Below are positions 5,816 to 13,261 of a DNA stretch of 41,675 bases, one piece after another. This DNA is from a virus. Lineage: Duplodnaviria; Caudoviricetes. The notes beneath the pieces are model-generated. The model was given only the letters and a program-made list of their open reading frames with translations. It was not told the DNA's origin and searched no databases. The position numbers were made by a program, and so were the translations under genes. The stretch covers positions 1 to 41,675 of IMG/VR virus record IMGVR_UViG_3300037047_000122; one strand, written 5' to 3'. How positions within the stretch are numbered: the first letter of the stretch is position 1; every line of letters begins with the position of its first letter.

Positions 5816-6361
5816 TTACCTTTCCGACGGTTCTATCCACGGCAGGCCGATTGCATTGAAAACGTCTCGCTCTTCGGGCGTGGGGATTACCTTATCGCCT
5901 GCCCACAGCAAGCCACCCTTGACGTGCATGTAGGATGGCAGTAATCCGCCCTTGTTGCGTTGGGTGACCAGGCGATGGGAAAAATCAGCACTGCCTGTGC
6001 GGATCGTGAAGATCATACCCCACTGCTCGGGTGTAGTCAGGAACAGGTCAAAGACAACACTGCCACCCTGCAGCCGCGCCTGTTTGAAGTGGTCGCCATT
6101 CTTCAGGAGCGTGAACCCGTCCACCAACAGCGCGGCGGTAATGTCGTCGGTTTCGCGTTTGACAATGGAATCGCCAAACAGATTGAAGGCAGTGTGCAAG
6201 CGGGGGATCATAACGATCTCCACATCGCCTATTGATGGCTTTTCGCGGCGGATGGATCCGGCGATTTCGATACGATCGCACTTAGGGCGCAGGAGAGAAA
6301 CCATATCCTCTGCCAGATGACGAGCGAACGGTAGAGACATGCGGACCTCGGATTCGCTCAT
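5816..6361 (-). CDS. Minimal family X DNA polymerase (palm plus C-terminal domain)
   Basis: AGSIRR..IGDVEIV, VFDLF, RTGSADF and EERDVFNAIGLPWIEPSER motifs. Confidence 0.85.
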   Translation of the reverse strand: MSESEVRMSLPFARHLAEDMVSLLRPKCDRIEIAGSIRREKPSIGDVEIVMIPRLHTAFNLFGDSIVKRETDDITAALLVDGFTLLKNGDHFKQARLQGGSVVFDLFLTTPEQWGMIFTIRTGSADFSHRLVTQRNKGGLLPSYMHVKGGLLWAGDKVIPTPEERDVFNAIGLPWIEPSER

Positions 6362-7059: not shown

Positions 7060-7340
7060 TTCACCTCCAACGCGGCTTCAACCGCGTCCAAAACTTCCCC
7101 CATCTTAGTTTGTACCTTCGAGGGTAAAGAAGTGCGTTGGGGGAGTACAGTTTTGACTAGCAAGAGAGTCTCCCTTAACCGCTTGGCCTTTGACTGGACA
7201 TGGGCGAGTTCGGCGTGCAGTTCCATCGCACATCGGTGAAACTGCTTCAGTTCGTCCACCGAAATTCGGTAATTTTCTTGTTGCATCCGAGCATCAATTG
7301 TCTCCAAAATGTTCGCCTCATTCGGATTTATGTCGCTCAT
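7056..7340 (-). CDS. Hypothetical coiled-coil protein, 94 aa
   Basis: Overlaps both neighbours by 4 nt; AAGGAG RBS. Confidence 0.7.
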   Translation of the reverse strand: MSDINPNEANILETIDARMQQENYRISVDELKQFHRCAMELHAELAHVQSKAKRLRETLLLVKTVLPQRTSLPSKVQTKMGEVLDAVEAALEVK

Positions 7341-8131
7341 TCATTCTCCTTCGTAATGTACTTCGATTTCGTTGTTCCGCTGGCCAGGTCGATATAGGTG
7401 GCCTGCTTGCGCAGATCCTGCGTCAGCAGCATCCGCACCAGGTAATCCCCGGCCTGCACCGCCACCGCCTGGTTGACCATCAGACCCTGGCTGTCCTGCA
7501 TCGCCATCTCCGCACAGCTAAGGCCATCCAGACTCGGTCCGTCTGCCTTCTCATCTTCCAGCAGCTCGGGGTGCTGATCAGTCGGCAGCGGCAGCCATGA
7601 GCACAGCCCTGGCAGCTCGAACGGATCATCCGGCCGCTTCGCCCCGCAGCCCAGCAGCATCTGGCCCGCGGCCTTATGATTGCCGCAGTCCAGCCACCAT
7701 GCCCGCGCCTTGCCGCTAACCGCCTTCGCCATCTCGCGCCGCCCTGCCGCGTTATCCACGCACCCGATCAGGACCAGCAGCGAGCCGCCAATCGGCAGCT
7801 TCGCCGAAAAGTGCTGCGGCACCGCGCGGATCTCCAGCCCCCAGGCCGCGCCGTAGCGCAGCGCCAGCGCGTCTGCCTTATTCCGCCCCACCTCCGCGTC
7901 ACAAAAATTCTGCCGGTAGACGTTTTTCGCCTCGACCTGGTCCGGGTCGATGAAATACATTTCCACCTTCCGGCGCTGAGTCTCACCCAGCAGGCGCGCC
8001 ACCCGCGCCACGGTCGGGGCCAGCCAGGACCCCGTCCCGCCGCAGCCCACCAGCGCCAGCGTGATCGTTTCCGACGCCGGAAGCAGCAGCCGGGCTGCAT
8101 TGACATAAGATAAATCAATCGACATCGACAT
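7337..8131 (-). CDS. E1-like ThiF family adenylyltransferase (PRTRC type)
   Basis: GCGGTGS nucleotide-binding loop, DPDQVE..NVYRQNF, GRNKA, GCVDN, WLDCGN and SCAE (candidate catalytic Cys). Start chosen at 8131 after GGAG. Confidence 0.9.
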   Translation of the reverse strand: MSMSIDLSYVNAARLLLPASETITLALVGCGGTGSWLAPTVARVARLLGETQRRKVEMYFIDPDQVEAKNVYRQNFCDAEVGRNKADALALRYGAAWGLEIRAVPQHFSAKLPIGGSLLVLIGCVDNAAGRREMAKAVSGKARAWWLDCGNHKAAGQMLLGCGAKRPDDPFELPGLCSWLPLPTDQHPELLEDEKADGPSLDGLSCAEMAMQDSQGLMVNQAVAVQAGDYLVRMLLTQDLRKQATYIDLASGTTKSKYITKENE

Positions 8132-8732
8132 ATTCAGGCTCCATTCCAAGATATAGCGCATCCGTGATGCCTGGAGGCAGTTGGAATACCCACTCCGCCG
8201 GGATCTCCCAGAAATGACCGTAAATGCCCACCCGCACCAGGATCGACGGCTGCGAATTCAAGTTCCCGATCACCGCGTACAAACGGAACCCGGTCGCCTC
8301 CTCACGGTTGTCGGTGGCGCTGAAATACGCGTTCATATGGTGGTGGCTGTGAACTTCGATGATCGTGTTCACGCCGGCGGCAAATGGATTTTCCGGGCGC
8401 ACGCTGGCGCCGGCCTGTATCTGCCTGGGCACGTTGACCAGCCACTGGTCCCAGTAATTCAGATAGAACAGGATTTCCTTGCCTTTCGCGCGGTACGCCA
8501 GATCGAACATCTTGCCGATCCGGTTGGCAGGGACAGGCGGGTCCAGGCGCACGAACGGCTGCACCTCGCGCAGCCCGCGAATCGGGCTGTACGTCGCCGC
8601 GACCCAGATCAGCGCCTCGAGGCCTGGCCGCCGCGCCCGGACGAAGATTCCATTCGACCCAACCACGTATTCATACAGGCTGTTGCCCTGGGGCGGCAGA
8701 TCGCCGGTGGCAAAAAGATGTTTTACAAACAC
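8115..8732 (-). CDS. JAB/JAMM metallopeptidase (PRTRC protein A type)
   Basis: KEIL (catalytic Glu) and EVHSHHHMNAYFSATD (HxH-x7-S-x2-D); N-terminal YVVGSNGIFVR; GTG start with GGAGGT RBS. Confidence 0.9.
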   Translation of the reverse strand: MFVKHLFATGDLPPQGNSLYEYVVGSNGIFVRARRPGLEALIWVAATYSPIRGLREVQPFVRLDPPVPANRIGKMFDLAYRAKGKEILFYLNYWDQWLVNVPRQIQAGASVRPENPFAAGVNTIIEVHSHHHMNAYFSATDNREEATGFRLYAVIGNLNSQPSILVRVGIYGHFWEIPAEWVFQLPPGITDALYLGMEPEYVDVD

Positions 8733-8736
8733 GAAG

Positions 8737-9441
8737 TCACCTCCCTAACTGCTGGTCGATCAGACGTCCGATCGACGAAGCGCTGTCTTCCCTGATCAGC
8801 TCGCCCTCGGGAAAACTCCGCGCGCCGCCCTCCGCCAGCTTCCGCAGCAGATCGCGCGCGTCTTTTTCAGCGCTGCGCACCTTTTTGATCGCCAGGTGCG
8901 CGTTGAACGGCGTGCGGAAGAACATCTCCCAGACCGGGCGCGCATTCCGGCTGTCCGACTCGGGTGGCGCGAAGCTGCCCCAGCAGATCCGCCCGTCTGA
9001 GTACACATTCGGGAACGGCGCGCGATAGACCGTCTCGCCCGGGTCGAAGAGTTTGGCCTTCAGCGCCCACAGGAAATACATGTTGCCGATCCCCAGCAGC
9101 ACCGTGCGCGGAATCGGGATCCGCAGCGCCGGCTCCCCATCCGCCAGGCTCAGCTCCACCTTCTGGGCCGGAGCGCTGTAGACGAAGAACGGCCCCGCCG
9201 CCCGTCGCCCCTGGCGCACGACTCCCGCCGGCGTCCACCCGGTGTCCGGCTCCGACCGGGTAAACGCCGCTTCCAGGTCTTCCGATGTCAGAAACTTCGA
9301 GACCCAGGCCGCCCCATTGCGGTGGCGAAAGAGATATTGTCCGTCCAGGAAGTACAGCACGCCGCCGGCTTCCAGTTCTCCAGATCCTGCCAGCGCGGTG
9401 TCTATCAGCCGCGTGGGGGTTTCGATCCATGTGTCCATCAT
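8737..9441 (-). CDS. Prokaryotic E2 family D ubiquitin-conjugating-like protein (PRTRC protein B type)
   Basis: YRAPFPNVYSDGRICWG with conserved Cys and WEMFFRTPFN; ATG 9441 after GGAGG, overlapping the upstream stop. Confidence 0.88.
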   Translation of the reverse strand: MMDTWIETPTRLIDTALAGSGELEAGGVLYFLDGQYLFRHRNGAAWVSKFLTSEDLEAAFTRSEPDTGWTPAGVVRQGRRAAGPFFVYSAPAQKVELSLADGEPALRIPIPRTVLLGIGNMYFLWALKAKLFDPGETVYRAPFPNVYSDGRICWGSFAPPESDSRNARPVWEMFFRTPFNAHLAIKKVRSAEKDARDLLRKLAEGGARSFPEGELIREDSASSIGRLIDQQLGR

Positions 9442-10364
9442 GCCTCCAATCCGATCGGGCCATAGAACTCGTCGATCACAGGTTCGCCGTCGTCTGCCTC
9501 GCCCGCCCATAGCTCGCCCAGCGTCTGCGGCCTGGTTTCCGTCTCTGCCGCGCTCTCGACGTACAGATCATACAACGTGCCGGCCAGGCTCATATCCCGC
9601 GCGAACCAGATCACTGCCCGGGTCAAATCCTCACGCATCGGCTGCGCCTCGGCCCAGGCCCACTCCAGCGCGCGCACGCCTTCGAGGGTGAACGCCGGCA
9701 GGTCGGCGATTACCTCTTCATCCCAGGGGTTGTAATCAAAATAATGGTTGCCTGTGTCGTACAGGCAGACGTTGATCGCGTTCTTAAATACGCCCAGCCC
9801 GCGCTCCTCGAGCATCTCGAACAGCCGTTCAAAGTTTGGGTCCTGGATATTGGCCGGGTCTTCCCCGCTCAGTTCCCATCCAAAATGGTCCGACGCTCTC
9901 AGCAGCACAGCGCTATCGCCCAGGCGCATCGCGGTGGTGAAGATATAAAGCCCCAACTCGTCACGGCAAGTGTCCAGGTCGTCCCCTGACATCTCCTCCC
10001 ACTCGTCCCAGCCCATCGGGTATCCGCAGCAGGCCGGGTACAGCTCGTCCGGCATACCGTCTTCGCAGCGCGTCTCCATCATTTCCAAATCCAGCGGCGC
10101 CAGCGCGTCGATCGCCCGCAGGCAGGCATCGATGATCGGATCGTCGCTATAAACACACTGTTTATCCTCGACTTCGCCGGCCGCGGCCCGCCGGAATTTC
10201 GCCGGGTCCAACGCGTTCAGCACCACCGCCGCCTGGATGCGCCGCTTCTTCTGCTCCAGCACTTCCAGGCAGTCGGATAACGACGGCCGCTTGCGCAGCT
10301 TCAGAAACTTGCGGGCCGTATCCAGACGCGGGAGCGCACCGGCGAGCTGCATCATGGCAACCAT
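9438..10364 (-). CDS. Acidic 308-aa protein in the PRTRC protein F position
   Basis: Translationally coupled between the Ubl and E2 genes; the family is assigned only by synteny. Confidence 0.6.
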   Translation of the reverse strand: MVAMMQLAGALPRLDTARKFLKLRKRPSLSDCLEVLEQKKRRIQAAVVLNALDPAKFRRAAAGEVEDKQCVYSDDPIIDACLRAIDALAPLDLEMMETRCEDGMPDELYPACCGYPMGWDEWEEMSGDDLDTCRDELGLYIFTTAMRLGDSAVLLRASDHFGWELSGEDPANIQDPNFERLFEMLEERGLGVFKNAINVCLYDTGNHYFDYNPWDEEVIADLPAFTLEGVRALEWAWAEAQPMREDLTRAVIWFARDMSLAGTLYDLYVESAAETETRPQTLGELWAGEADDGEPVIDEFYGPIGLEA

Positions 10365-10801
10365 TAGAAACCCAGCACCACCGCGCCGGCCGGGCGCGCC
10401 TGGGCCTGTTCCAGCCGCCGCAGCGCCGCCTTCACGTGCTCGCCCTGCTTCTCGCCGACCTCGAGCGCGGAATCGATCCGTGCGTCCAGCTCGAGCATCG
10501 TGTACGGGTCAAGATCGTCCTCGCCCTGGATCTCCTGGTAAAGCGCGATCGCCGGGTTTTGGCCGCCCGGGCTGGCTGCCAGTGCGGCCAGCGCCGCCAA
10601 AGGTGCCGGGCCACCGCCCTTGCTCCCGGCCTTCTTGATCACGTTGATGGTGACCTCGCCGGCCTTCTCGACCCGGGTGATCAGCGCGTTCGCTACCTCA
10701 GGATAGAACGGTGCCAGGGCGCGCTTCACGGCGTCGTCATTGGCGCCAATTTCTTCAGGAACGGGAATGGATTGTCCTTCGACGAGTACGGTGTAATTCA
10801 T
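10364..10801 (-). CDS. Ubiquitin-like protein (PRTRC protein C/Prok_Ub type) with C-terminal helical extension
   Basis: VKRALAPFYPEVANA...KKAGSKG matches the YPE...GxKG signature; 83 further residues follow Gly62. Confidence 0.8.
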   Translation of the reverse strand: MNYTVLVEGQSIPVPEEIGANDDAVKRALAPFYPEVANALITRVEKAGEVTINVIKKAGSKGGGPAPLAALAALAASPGGQNPAIALYQEIQGEDDLDPYTMLELDARIDSALEVGEKQGEHVKAALRRLEQAQARPAGAVVLGF

Positions 10802-10802
10802 G

Positions 10803-12107
10803 TTATTTCTCCACGTTGTGCAGACGGGTGAGAATGGATTGAAGTTGGTCCGGAAGGACCAGGTCAGCGAGACGGGCGAAGGACATCAGCGGAGCGTCCT
10901 GATTGAGACGGCCGCCAATGTTGACCATGCGGTTGCCGCTGGAGTCCTCTGGCCATAGGGTCAAGGTGAGCATAATAGTTGACTGCTCCCAACTCAGTAC
11001 CGCGGGGGGCTGAACAGGGGCCGCAGCTGGGGCAGGCTGTGGCTTGGGAGCGGGCTGGGCAGCAGCCGGGCGCGGTGGCTCAGGCGCGCGAATCGGGGCA
11101 GGAGATGGGACCGGAGCCGGGCGAGGGTGCACCGGGGCGAATTCGCGCGCGGGCTCCTGTGGCTCCTCAACCATTTCCCCAGCAGGGTCATACGCCAATA
11201 CCTCTTCGGGATCATCAGCGACCGTTTCCGTAGAAACGTTTTCGTCCATATCCTGGCTATCACCGCCAATCTCCTCGTTGTCCTGGCTTTCGTCTTCGGT
11301 TTCATCAAGGAGCGTTTCCATAGAAACGCCGGGTTCGGGCTGGGGATTCGGCAGATAAATCTGTTCTGCCGGCGGATTAATCCGGCGCGTCAAACGATTG
11401 ACCATTTCGGCAACCCGATCGGGGGATATGCCGCTGCGGGCAGCTTCGATGATCTCGGAGGGCTTGAGGTCATCGCTGTCCTCGGCCTGGAGGCGCAGGG
11501 TCTCAGGAATGTCATAGAGCGGCACCAGGGCCCTGCCTACGCCCTCTGTGATCTCACCAGCGCGCAGTGCGTTCTGGAGGGCCTCAGGAAGTCCCAGGAG
11601 GCGCATTTTGTTACGCACGGCGGAATCGCTGAGGCCGAATAAGCTGCCGATCTCGATCGACGTTTTGCCAAACTTCTCGCGGTAAACCAACATGGCTTTG
11701 GCTTCTTCGATCGGGCTGAGATCCTTGCGGGCCATGTTTTCGGACACACCGCGGCGGAAGAGCTCCTCATCGGTGAGGTCATTGACGATAACCGGCATGC
11801 GATCGAAGCCGAAATTACCGGTTTCGTCGAGGAACTTGTAGGCAGCCAGTCGAGAGTGGCCAAAGGCGAGTTGGACGCGGCAGTCGCGATCGCGACATAG
11901 CTGGTCGATGGACTGAGTGCGCATCAAGTCGGCAGATCCCGGCTGGGGTTGGCCAACATGGTCGATCAGGCGGCCAAGTGGCAGTTGGAGCAGCCCTTCC
12001 TCGGCGATAGAGACAGCCAGGTTCTTGATGTGGGCGGGGTTCTCTCCTTCGCGGGGCTGATCGGGATTGGGGACGATGTGGTGCAGTTGGACTTGAACGA
12101 TTTGCAT
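10803..12107 (-). CDS. parB: ParB/RepB/Spo0J family protein with acidic and Pro-rich linker and C-terminal domain
   Basis: NPDQPR, EGLLQ, FGHSRLAA, ENMARKDLSPIEEA and a following HTH. Confidence 0.9.
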   Translation of the reverse strand: MQIVQVQLHHIVPNPDQPREGENPAHIKNLAVSIAEEGLLQLPLGRLIDHVGQPQPGSADLMRTQSIDQLCRDRDCRVQLAFGHSRLAAYKFLDETGNFGFDRMPVIVNDLTDEELFRRGVSENMARKDLSPIEEAKAMLVYREKFGKTSIEIGSLFGLSDSAVRNKMRLLGLPEALQNALRAGEITEGVGRALVPLYDIPETLRLQAEDSDDLKPSEIIEAARSGISPDRVAEMVNRLTRRINPPAEQIYLPNPQPEPGVSMETLLDETEDESQDNEEIGGDSQDMDENVSTETVADDPEEVLAYDPAGEMVEEPQEPAREFAPVHPRPAPVPSPAPIRAPEPPRPAAAQPAPKPQPAPAAAPVQPPAVLSWEQSTIMLTLTLWPEDSSGNRMVNIGGRLNQDAPLMSFARLADLVLPDQLQSILTRLHNVEK

Positions 12108-12697: not shown

Positions 12698-13261
12698 CTA
12701 CTTTCCTGCCTGTTCGAAAGACTTGACCTCAACCGTGTAGGTGCGTCCGCGCCTGGGTGGAGTAGCCACCGATATGCCTTCTAACGCTTCTGACAATTTA
12801 TCGAAAGTGAACATCAGTTGGGCCTGTTTGGCCTGTTCGATAGCAACATCGGTCCCGGTGATATCCAGGGTATAAGCGCCGTGGCGCTGGATGACGGCGT
12901 GAAACTCTTCGATGTCATGGGGGCGAATCGAGTAAGTCGTTTCTCCTCCGTCTTCAACTGCGCAGCAGTGGCAGAGCTGGTGGTCGATGAGGGCTTCGCG
13001 CCAGGCCTGGTTTTTGGATTTCCAGTCATGCTCCGAAACCCAGATGATAAAATCGGCATCGTCAGTGAGGGCGCGTGTTTTTGAACTCGTTTTTTCCGCG
13101 CCGGCATAAGCGACCTTTCCGCCAGAGTTGGCGGGTTCGCTGCGGAACATAAACAGGATGTTTGCTTCATGCAGATCGGGGTGATGCAGGTTGATCAGGT
13201 CCCGGGCTGTAGTCAAAACATCGTTATTGGCGCTGGTCAGTTTTTCCCATTCGATAGCCAT
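12698..13261 (-). CDS. Phage putative metallopeptidase family protein with HQxxH in place of HExxH
   Basis: DFIIW...EALIDHQLCH...IRPHDIEEF; strong GGAGG RBS. Confidence 0.8.
   Translation of the reverse strand: MAIEWEKLTSANNDVLTTARDLINLHHPDLHEANILFMFRSEPANSGGKVAYAGAEKTSSKTRALTDDADFIIWVSEHDWKSKNQAWREALIDHQLCHCCAVEDGGETTYSIRPHDIEEFHAVIQRHGAYTLDITGTDVAIEQAKQAQLMFTFDKLSEALEGISVATPPRRGRTYTVEVKSFEQAGK

What the first reader, a model, noticed from the sequence alone, without database searches (positions are those of the whole stretch)
10364..10801. The Ubl is a proprotein: GSKG terminus followed by an 83-aa helical passenger
Seen: residues 1-62 end KKAGSKG, then GG-PAPLAALAALAASPGGQNPAIALYQE...AVVLGF continues with no stop. 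Known: PRTRC protein C normally ends at GxKG, E1 adenylation needs a free C-terminal Gly, and JAB proteases mature Ubl precursors. Inference: the JAB must cleave after G62 (or G63/G64), gating conjugation and releasing a second protein; the hydrophobic VVLGF end could act as a degron.
Basis: partly seen in the sequence, partly recalled or inferred. Interest (0 to 1): 0.75.

Follow-up and report, generated by a model that had tools for sequence, protein, structure and literature searches.

The report
Phage ubiquitin-like precursor with separable passenger
A temperate phage encodes its ubiquitin-like tag fused to a second small protein that is a separate gene in some relatives, and the neighbouring protease likely cuts the two apart at a fixed glycine, which would give that protease a job in a never-tested bacterial ubiquitin system of mobile elements.

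Summary
Observation confirmed: minus-strand gene, 145 aa, a beta-grasp domain ending KKAGSKG62, then 83 helical residues, no stop. It is not an assembly error: 172 of 178 retrieved homologues have both domains. The gene sits in a divergent PRTRC cassette (Iyer type 6d: Ubl, E2-D, JAB, ThiF/E1) on a complete temperate phage. Cleavage after G62 is inferred, not shown, but well supported. Relatives stop exactly at this Gly, or add 1-7 unconserved residues, with the helical domain as the next gene. Others carry unrelated passengers or five head-to-tail Ubl copies. The residue after Gly is never P, D, E or K (0 of 169). All 60 complete cassettes with a tail have a JAB; all 9 without a JAB end at the Gly. 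G63/G64 and the degron idea are not supported. The passenger is a conserved cassette protein; binding to the next gene's product got weak support only. JAB-cut Ubl pre-proteins are known (Bub), so this is a new variant. The scan reported a similar Ubl-passenger fusion on other DNA (e1-9728023, e1-7845362).

The parts
10616..10801 (-). Ubiquitin-like beta-grasp domain, residues 1-62, ending K-K-A-G-S-K-G62 (divergent PRTRC protein C / Prok_Ub)
   Evidence: Model E2-7, E10-14, helices 16-38, E40-46, E49-55. VIA-align rows for residues 1-62 are mostly ubiquitin-like domains, Z 4.4-5.1, e.g. 8bs3_B Z 5.1, rmsd 2.6, 57 aligned. PF14454 and TIGR03738 at E 0.046, under cut-off.
10615..10618 (-). Predicted JAB cleavage point, between G62 (codon 10618-10616) and G63
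   Evidence: Inferred from natural stops at this Gly, short caps, swapped passengers, +1 residue bias and JAB co-occurrence.
10364..10615 (-). Passenger: 83-aa three-helix domain with an NP motif and a conserved terminal [VLI]-[PVI]-x-G-F; a separate gene in some relatives
   Evidence: No Pfam, NCBIfam or PHROG family. Third codon positions differ more than first and second against 6 of 6 homologues.
9438..10364 (-). 308-aa uncharacterised protein in the PRTRC-F position, start codon overlapping the passenger's stop; candidate partner of the passenger
   Evidence: Conserved TGN-x3-D. No Pfam match, and no detectable similarity to annotated PRTRC F. Predicted complex 0.54 against best control 0.00, weak.
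8737..9438 (-). E2-like protein (Prok-E2_D / PRTRC B-like), Cys152 conserved
   Evidence: PF14460 E 2.4e-21, TIGR03737 E 1.6e-14 under cut-off; invariant C152 in 7 of 7 seed sequences.
8115..8732 (-). JAB/JAMM metalloprotease (PRTRC A-like) with intact E86, H128, H130, S138, D141
   Evidence: PF14464 E 5.3e-7, TIGR03735 E 5.1e-14 under cut-off; invariant in 9 of 9 seeds.
7337..8161 (-). ThiF/E1-like adenylyltransferase with GxGxxG and a conserved Cys216
   Evidence: TIGR03736 139.6 bits against cut-off 144.75; PF00899; invariant residues in 7 of 7 seeds.
10803..12107 (-). ParB-family protein directly upstream; its C-terminal domain looks by eye like the PRTRC-E-position gene of other cassettes
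   Evidence: PF02195, PF17762, TIGR00180; TIGR03734 E 3e-9. The E-like likeness is by inspection, not tested.

Best explanation
The gene encodes a ubiquitin-like domain fused to a second cassette protein, and the cassette's JAB protease likely cuts the fusion after Gly62, which would free a C-terminal glycine for the ThiF/E1 enzyme and release the 83-residue helical protein. Shown by sequence: the fusion, the two-domain model, intact-looking JAB, E1 and E2 active sites, and the modular behaviour of the junction across relatives. Inferred: (1) JAB cleavage at G62; (2) adenylation by E1 and transfer through E1 Cys216 and E2 Cys152 to an unknown target; (3) the released passenger is a functional protein, not a throw-away cap, made one-to-one with the Ubl; (4) least certain, about 35%, it binds the protein of the next gene through its helices or its GF tail. 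The fusion is best read as two neighbouring operon genes joined where a maturase makes a stop codon unnecessary, as in eukaryotic ubiquitin-ribosomal protein fusions.
For: (a) Natural splits at the predicted site. Pseudanabaena galeata plasmids end the Ubl at AGPKG-stop and start an 83-aa helical gene ending IRGF two bases later; one of them has a full cassette. (c) Swapped passengers: Cys-rich domains in L012 and L013 and an acidic domain in phage L144, each with the helical gene standing alone downstream; P0177 carries a PHROG-family domain. (d) P0116 is five head-to-tail Ubl units each ending AGTKG plus a 3-residue cap, and passes the TIGR03738 and PF14454 cut-offs. (e) In 169 anchored fusions Lys at -6 (159), Gly at -3 (152) and Lys at -1 (159) are conserved; conservation collapses at +1; the linker offset runs from -5 to 124 residues; +1 is P/D/E/K in 0 of 169 against 27 of 169 at +2 (p 5e-9, sequences not independent). 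(f) Among 73 hand-deduplicated cassettes with E2 and E1 both in view: tail with JAB 60, no tail with JAB 4, tail without JAB 0, no tail without JAB 9; grouped by hand into lineages 9/4/0/6, Fisher p 0.011. (g) The JAB metal motif is matched in 60 of 62 loci tested, and the other two show it with wider spacing. (h) Precedent: the BubCD JAB domain cuts BubAB right after conserved G229 (PMC11601596). (i) Passenger with the next protein: ipSAE 0.54, best of 3 controls 0.00, runs agree in at least 96% of contacts, partner pLDDT 70; weak, since at 0.60 or under the mark was reached by 18 of 157 solved complexes and by both mismatches that passed (2 of 215).
Against: No cleavage, adenylation or conjugation was observed; all support is comparative. 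The Ubl scores under the family cut-offs (E 0.046) and its fold matches are middling (Z up to 5.1). Four cassettes keep a JAB with no tail (L027, L038, L040, L147), so the JAB must also do something else, such as deconjugation. JAB absence means none in 4.5-7 kb flanks, the JAB-less loci come from about six lineages, and most were chosen by me from plasmid hit lists. Three fused homologues lack an anchorable Gly, L096 and L100 read GTKA, and L113 lacks the KG. Another host or phage protease could do the cutting.
Confidence: 0.8

Rival explanations
1. The fusion works uncut as a two-domain adaptor; the beta-grasp domain binds E1, E2 or a target non-covalently and the cassette does not conjugate in this lineage.
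For: The fused form is the majority in this subfamily (172 of 178); no conjugation by any PRTRC cassette was found in the papers searched.
Against: Insertions of up to 124 residues and unrelated passengers after the Gly, natural splits, random short caps, the +1 bias and the JAB-tail association; E1, E2 and JAB catalytic residues are kept.
Confidence: 0.08
2. The reactive glycine is the invariant one at the far end: the JAB clips the last Phe and G144 is adenylated, so the passenger or the whole protein is what gets conjugated (in the manner of CBASS nucleotidyltransferases, which Cap2 conjugates by their C-terminus).
For: G144-F145 invariant in 30 of 30 close homologues and GF in 153 of 172 overall; the tail is extended and not helical. 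It need not exclude cutting at G62.
Against: No beta-grasp precedes G144. Whole clades lack GF (ends such as PVV, PKLI, LPAR, LGW) while keeping AGxKG. Canonical and JAB-less cassettes have no such domain and end at the G62 equivalent.
Confidence: 0.07
3. The passenger is mainly an inhibitory pro-piece with a C-terminal degron; it gates conjugation and is then destroyed.
For: Hydrophobic tail; any extension would block adenylation until cut.
Against: The same domain with the same GF end exists as an independent gene; it shows codon-position bias typical of selection on the protein; one-residue caps suffice for blocking in other clades. Degradation was not tested, so a degron role on top of another function is not excluded.
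Confidence: 0.05

Closest known systems
PRTRC cassette (NCBIfam TIGR03734-TIGR03738 hit here) = operon type 6d of Iyer, Burroughs and Aravind 2006 (PMC1779556; section 14 and passages read)
   Same: Gene order ParB, (E), Ubl, alpha-helical protein, E2-D, JAB with JAB-N, ThiF; E2 Cys; carried on mobile elements; the Ubl's GxKG.
   Different: That paper describes the Ubl as small and standalone with a C-terminal glycine. Here, and in the Nostoc 7120 plasmid cassette, it is fused to a helical domain. All hits are under the NCBIfam cut-offs, and the F-position protein is not detectably similar to annotated F. Equating PRTRC with 6d is my reading of gene content.
Type I Bub (6E.1) BubAB pre-protein cut by BubCD (PMC11601596; parts 1-3 of 7 read)
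   Same: A JAB domain cuts a Ubl fusion right after the conserved Gly and frees a second pathway protein.
   Different: There the passenger is the E2, JAB is fused to E1, catalysis uses Tyr/Ser and BubE is present. Here the passenger is an unknown helical protein, the enzymes are separate genes and keep Cys, no BubE match was seen among the cassette genes scanned, and the cassette is on a phage.
Bil (BilABCD) antiphage system (passages in PMC11601596, PMC11354881)
   Same: Separate Ubl, E2, JAB, E1; BilC trims BilA to expose the Gly.
   Different: Host defence with eukaryote-like E1; this cassette has a ThiF-type E1, an E2-D and ParB, and lies in a phage early region.
Eukaryotic ubiquitin-ribosomal protein fusions and polyubiquitin precursors (passages in PMC11354881)
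   Same: Linear fusion processed at the Ubl's last Gly; head-to-tail polymers with a final cap (P0116).
   Different: Unrelated passengers and cysteine-protease processing in eukaryotes (the protease class is recalled); analogy of mechanism, not family membership.

Membership tests
PRTRC / type 6d cassette | ThiF/E1, JAB, E2-D and ParB genes in one operon | tested here: met
   Pfam matches above cut-off for all four; TIGR03734-37 significant but under their cut-offs.
PRTRC / type 6d cassette | Ubl of the Prok_Ub / protein C family with beta-grasp fold | tested here: inconclusive
   Residues 1-62 score E 0.046, under cut-off; fold rows are Ubls at Z 4.4-5.1; relative P0116 passes both cut-offs; a profile of this subfamily finds annotated protein C of Novosphingobium (E 4e-5) and Ralstonia (E 8e-4).
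PRTRC / type 6d cassette | Ubl is standalone and ends in Gly | tested here: not met
   83-residue in-frame extension. Three NCBI-annotated protein C genes also fail this, so it is not a strict feature.
PRTRC / type 6d cassette | Alpha-helical protein F between Ubl and E2 | tested here: inconclusive
   A 308-aa gene fills the position, but 0 of 37 aligned members match a Pfam F family and the profile comparison with annotated F gives probability 0.1.
JAB-processed Ubl pre-protein (Bub/Bil type) | Cognate JAB with intact E...HxH...S..D site | tested here: met
   E86, H128, H130, S138, D141.
JAB-processed Ubl pre-protein (Bub/Bil type) | Cleavage directly after the conserved Gly | not testable with these tools
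   Only comparative support.
Bub (6E) operon | Ubl-E2 or E2-E1 or JAB-E1 fusions, Tyr/Ser catalysis, BubE/DUF6527 | tested here: not met
   Separate genes, conserved Cys in E1 and E2, no DUF6527 match in 11 proteins scanned.

The most novel reading that the evidence does not exclude
Temperate phages and plasmids use the PRTRC Ubl as a self-removing expression leader: any gene that lands in frame after GxKG is co-made and released by the JAB, and the default passenger is a regulatory subunit of the neighbouring unknown enzyme, so one protease switches on both protein tagging and that enzyme.
Probability: 0.25. Interest if true: 0.75.

Novelty: new variant of a known kind. Interest (0 to 1): 0.55.

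Why it matters
PRTRC cassettes are widespread on plasmids and prophages, and I found no experimental study of them in seven searches of the held library. The pattern here (tails only where a JAB is present) assigns protein A a maturase role, fixes the cut site, and defines an unannotated protein family that profile libraries miss because it is usually fused. It gives a ready substrate-enzyme pair, including one on the Nostoc PCC 7120 beta plasmid, for the first reconstitution of this pathway, and adds a phage-borne case to Ubl precursor processing known from host defence systems.

Tried and rejected
Assembly error: rejected. Membership in Bub: rejected after reading PMC11601596. A known family or fold for the passenger: none in Pfam, NCBIfam or PHROGs; Foldseek best E 4.3; Atlas best TM 0.60 to an exonuclease VII small subunit cluster, under the bar, as was VIA-align 1vp7_A Z 5.1: a generic helical hairpin. 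The wide structural search of the passenger alone could not be run because the machine was busy, so its fold is left open. Homology of the passenger to the small Pro/hydrophobic-ended ORFs between C and F in canonical cassettes, or to the N-terminus of canonical F: not detected (best E 0.37). GenBank phages: no match. Passenger alone against plasmids: no match, though homologues are there, so that search is insensitive. Shorter-protein search: one 53-aa fragment, uninformative. Canonical Ubls as queries in viral contigs: nothing. Rows left out of the JAB-tail table: loci cut before E1 (L002, L006-L008, L055, L062, L064-L074, L094, L098, L108, L130, L139), broken or split cassettes (L024, whose plasmid has ThiF and JAB elsewhere; L026, L028, L029, L042, L043, L145), L155 (cut at the record end, ends in Ala, no tail, no JAB seen), L056/L110 (no Ubl hit) and duplicate contigs (L015, L019, L030-L035, L131-L137, L140). 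A JAB-Ubl complex was not predicted; the one job went to the passenger.

Full report
Observation. The gene lies on the minus strand at 10801..10364 and encodes 145 aa; residues 1-62 end KKAGSKG and continue without a stop to AVVLGF. A contig from run X13 crosses the junction with no differences; three other runs laid gave no contig. A word-indexed search gave 31 proteins including the query; 30 were aligned and all read through, with K56, A58, G59, G62, G144 and F145 invariant. A profile search found 586 clusters at E up to 0.001 and listed 150. Of the 178 proteins from both searches, 172 have both domains, 5 the Ubl only and 1 the passenger only.

Context. The window is a complete virus record with direct terminal repeats and has integrase, terminase, portal, major head and tape-measure genes, so it is a temperate phage. 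The closest genome loci are in Anaerolineae, which suggests the host class; this is inference. The gene sits in the replication-side arm in the order ParB, Ubl, 308-aa unknown, E2-D, JAB, ThiF/E1. This matches PRTRC and operon type 6d of Iyer et al. 2006 (PMC1779556; I read section 14 and passages), where the Ubl is described as small, standalone and ending in glycine. The active sites look intact: JAB E86/H128/H130/S138/D141, E1 GxGxxG and C216, E2 C152.

Anatomy. AlphaFold2 models residues 1-55 as a beta-grasp, 61-65 as low-confidence, and 67-132 as three helices, pTM 0.42. Structure rows for residues 1-62 are mostly ubiquitin-like domains at Z 4.4-5.1, several aligning residue 61-62 with the Ubl's end; such Z values are middling. 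Residues 1-62 give PF14454 and TIGR03738 at E 0.046, under cut-off, while the five-unit relative P0116 passes both. The passenger folds alone (pLDDT 85) and has no family or clear fold match.

The junction behaves like a processing site. First, natural splits: two Pseudanabaena galeata plasmids end the Ubl at AGPKG-stop and begin an 83-aa helical gene two bases on. Second, caps: 18 Blastocatellia-class loci add 1-7 unconserved residues after the Gly, and 17 of them have the helical domain as a separate gene just downstream. Third, swapped passengers: L012 and L013 (Cys-rich), L144 (acidic), with the helical gene separate; P0177 and annotated protein C genes of Azonexus and Manganitrophus carry other tails. 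Fourth, P0116 is a head-to-tail pentamer with a 3-residue cap. Fifth, in 169 anchored fusions the motif is conserved up to the Gly and conservation collapses after it; linker offsets run from -5 to 124 residues; the +1 residue is never P, D, E or K, against 27 of 169 at +2. The Gly itself is the anchor, so its invariance there is by construction; 3 of 172 could not be anchored. Gly at +1 occurs in only 18 of 169, so G63/G64 are not the site.

JAB and tail go together. Among 73 cassettes with both E2 and E1 in view, 60 have a tail and a JAB, 4 no tail and a JAB, 9 no tail and no JAB, and none a tail without a JAB. The JAB-less ones are Deinococcus (2), Pseudomonas (2), Marinobacter, Bacteroidales (2), Thiodictyon and one Chloroflexota-phylum genome. 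Grouped by hand into lineages the table is 9/4/0/6, p 0.011. Caveats: relatedness, my choice of plasmid records (tails unknown when chosen), absence judged within flanks only, and three loci counted as tailed whose motif deviates (L096, L100, L113). Dropped rows are listed under Tried and rejected. The four JAB-plus, tail-less cassettes imply a second JAB role, probably deconjugation.

Mechanism. Shown: fusion, modular junction, intact enzymes. Inferred: the JAB cuts after G62 (about 0.8); E1 adenylates the new end and passes the Ubl through C216 and E2 C152 to an unknown target; the passenger is released one-to-one. The direct precedent is BubAB, cut after G229 by the JAB domain of BubCD (PMC11601596; parts 1-3 of 7 read), a different operon family.

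What the passenger does. It is a real cassette protein: it persists as a separate gene, and against 6 of 6 homologues third codon positions differ more than first and second. Its GF end is kept in 153 of 172 fusions and in the split forms, with a charged residue before GF in 24 of 154, which fits a docking motif better than a plain hydrophobic degron; degradation was not tested. It lies directly before the F-position gene, in most of the 37 loci examined within 20 bases. A predicted complex of the two scored 0.54 against a best control of 0.00, with runs agreeing in at least 96% of contacts and partner pLDDT 70; the tool rates this weak, since at 0.60 or under only 18 of 157 solved complexes and both passing mismatches (2 of 215) fell there. 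I put binding at about 0.35. P0126 joins the Ubl to the C-terminal part of the F-position protein with the passenger gone; it may simply be a deletion.

What is known. Seven searches showed no paper on PRTRC Ubl precursors or PRTRC biochemistry; most results were seen as listings only, subscription journals are mostly missing, and I did not see the supplements of PMC1779556 or the Bub preprints, which may list such fusions. PMC11601603 and PMC11354881 were read as passages. The scan's own notes report similar Ubl-passenger fusions in other genomes (e1-9728023, e1-7845362) and a Ubl-JAB fusion (e1-1954190); I saw them after forming this reading, and they are not independent evidence.

Verdict. 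Real, conserved and correctly read as a proprotein; the site is G62; the degron idea is unsupported. A new variant of JAB-processed Ubl pre-proteins, in an untested system. Interest 0.55.

Noticed in passing
L023:4513-4995, L024:4439-4993, L025:4532-4999, L029 (gene upstream of the Ubl): The PRTRC-E-position gene of cyanobacterial plasmid cassettes ends in QL[S/K/T]LF, which resembles the beta-clamp binding motif (motif recalled, not from a call). dnaN lies next to the cassette in L025 and L040, holA in L041. This hints that the cassette acts at the replisome. The phage ParB fusions of the window's clade do not end this way.
   Followed up: partly
L038:2340-2561, L040:2340-2576, L039:2452-2646, L148:4697-4924, L043:5792-6019, L152:5239-5394: Canonical PRTRC cassettes often have a 50-80-aa ORF with a Pro-rich hydrophobic end just before F, fused to the Ubl in Manganitrophus: a positional analogue of the passenger with no detectable sequence similarity.
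   Followed up: partly
P0116 (protein id, no locus): A bacterial or phage poly-Ubl of five head-to-tail PRTRC-C units with a 3-residue cap, built like a eukaryotic polyubiquitin precursor.
   Followed up: partly
window 9438-10364 (-): The F-position protein family has a conserved TGN-x3-D motif and a conserved Glu but no Pfam match in 36 of 37 members; candidate unknown enzyme.
   Followed up: partly
L012 and L013 (one Blastocatellia genome), L124, L104: Unrelated genes are inserted inside the cassette, between JAB and E1 (L012, L013, including an AAA-ATPase-like ORF), between F-position and E2 (L124) or E2 and JAB (L104).
   Followed up: no
window 5816-6361 (-) and 12698-13261 (-): A stand-alone DNA polymerase beta palm/thumb protein and a phage metallopeptidase (PF18894) flank the cassette; the latter is a second protease in the same arm.
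   Followed up: no
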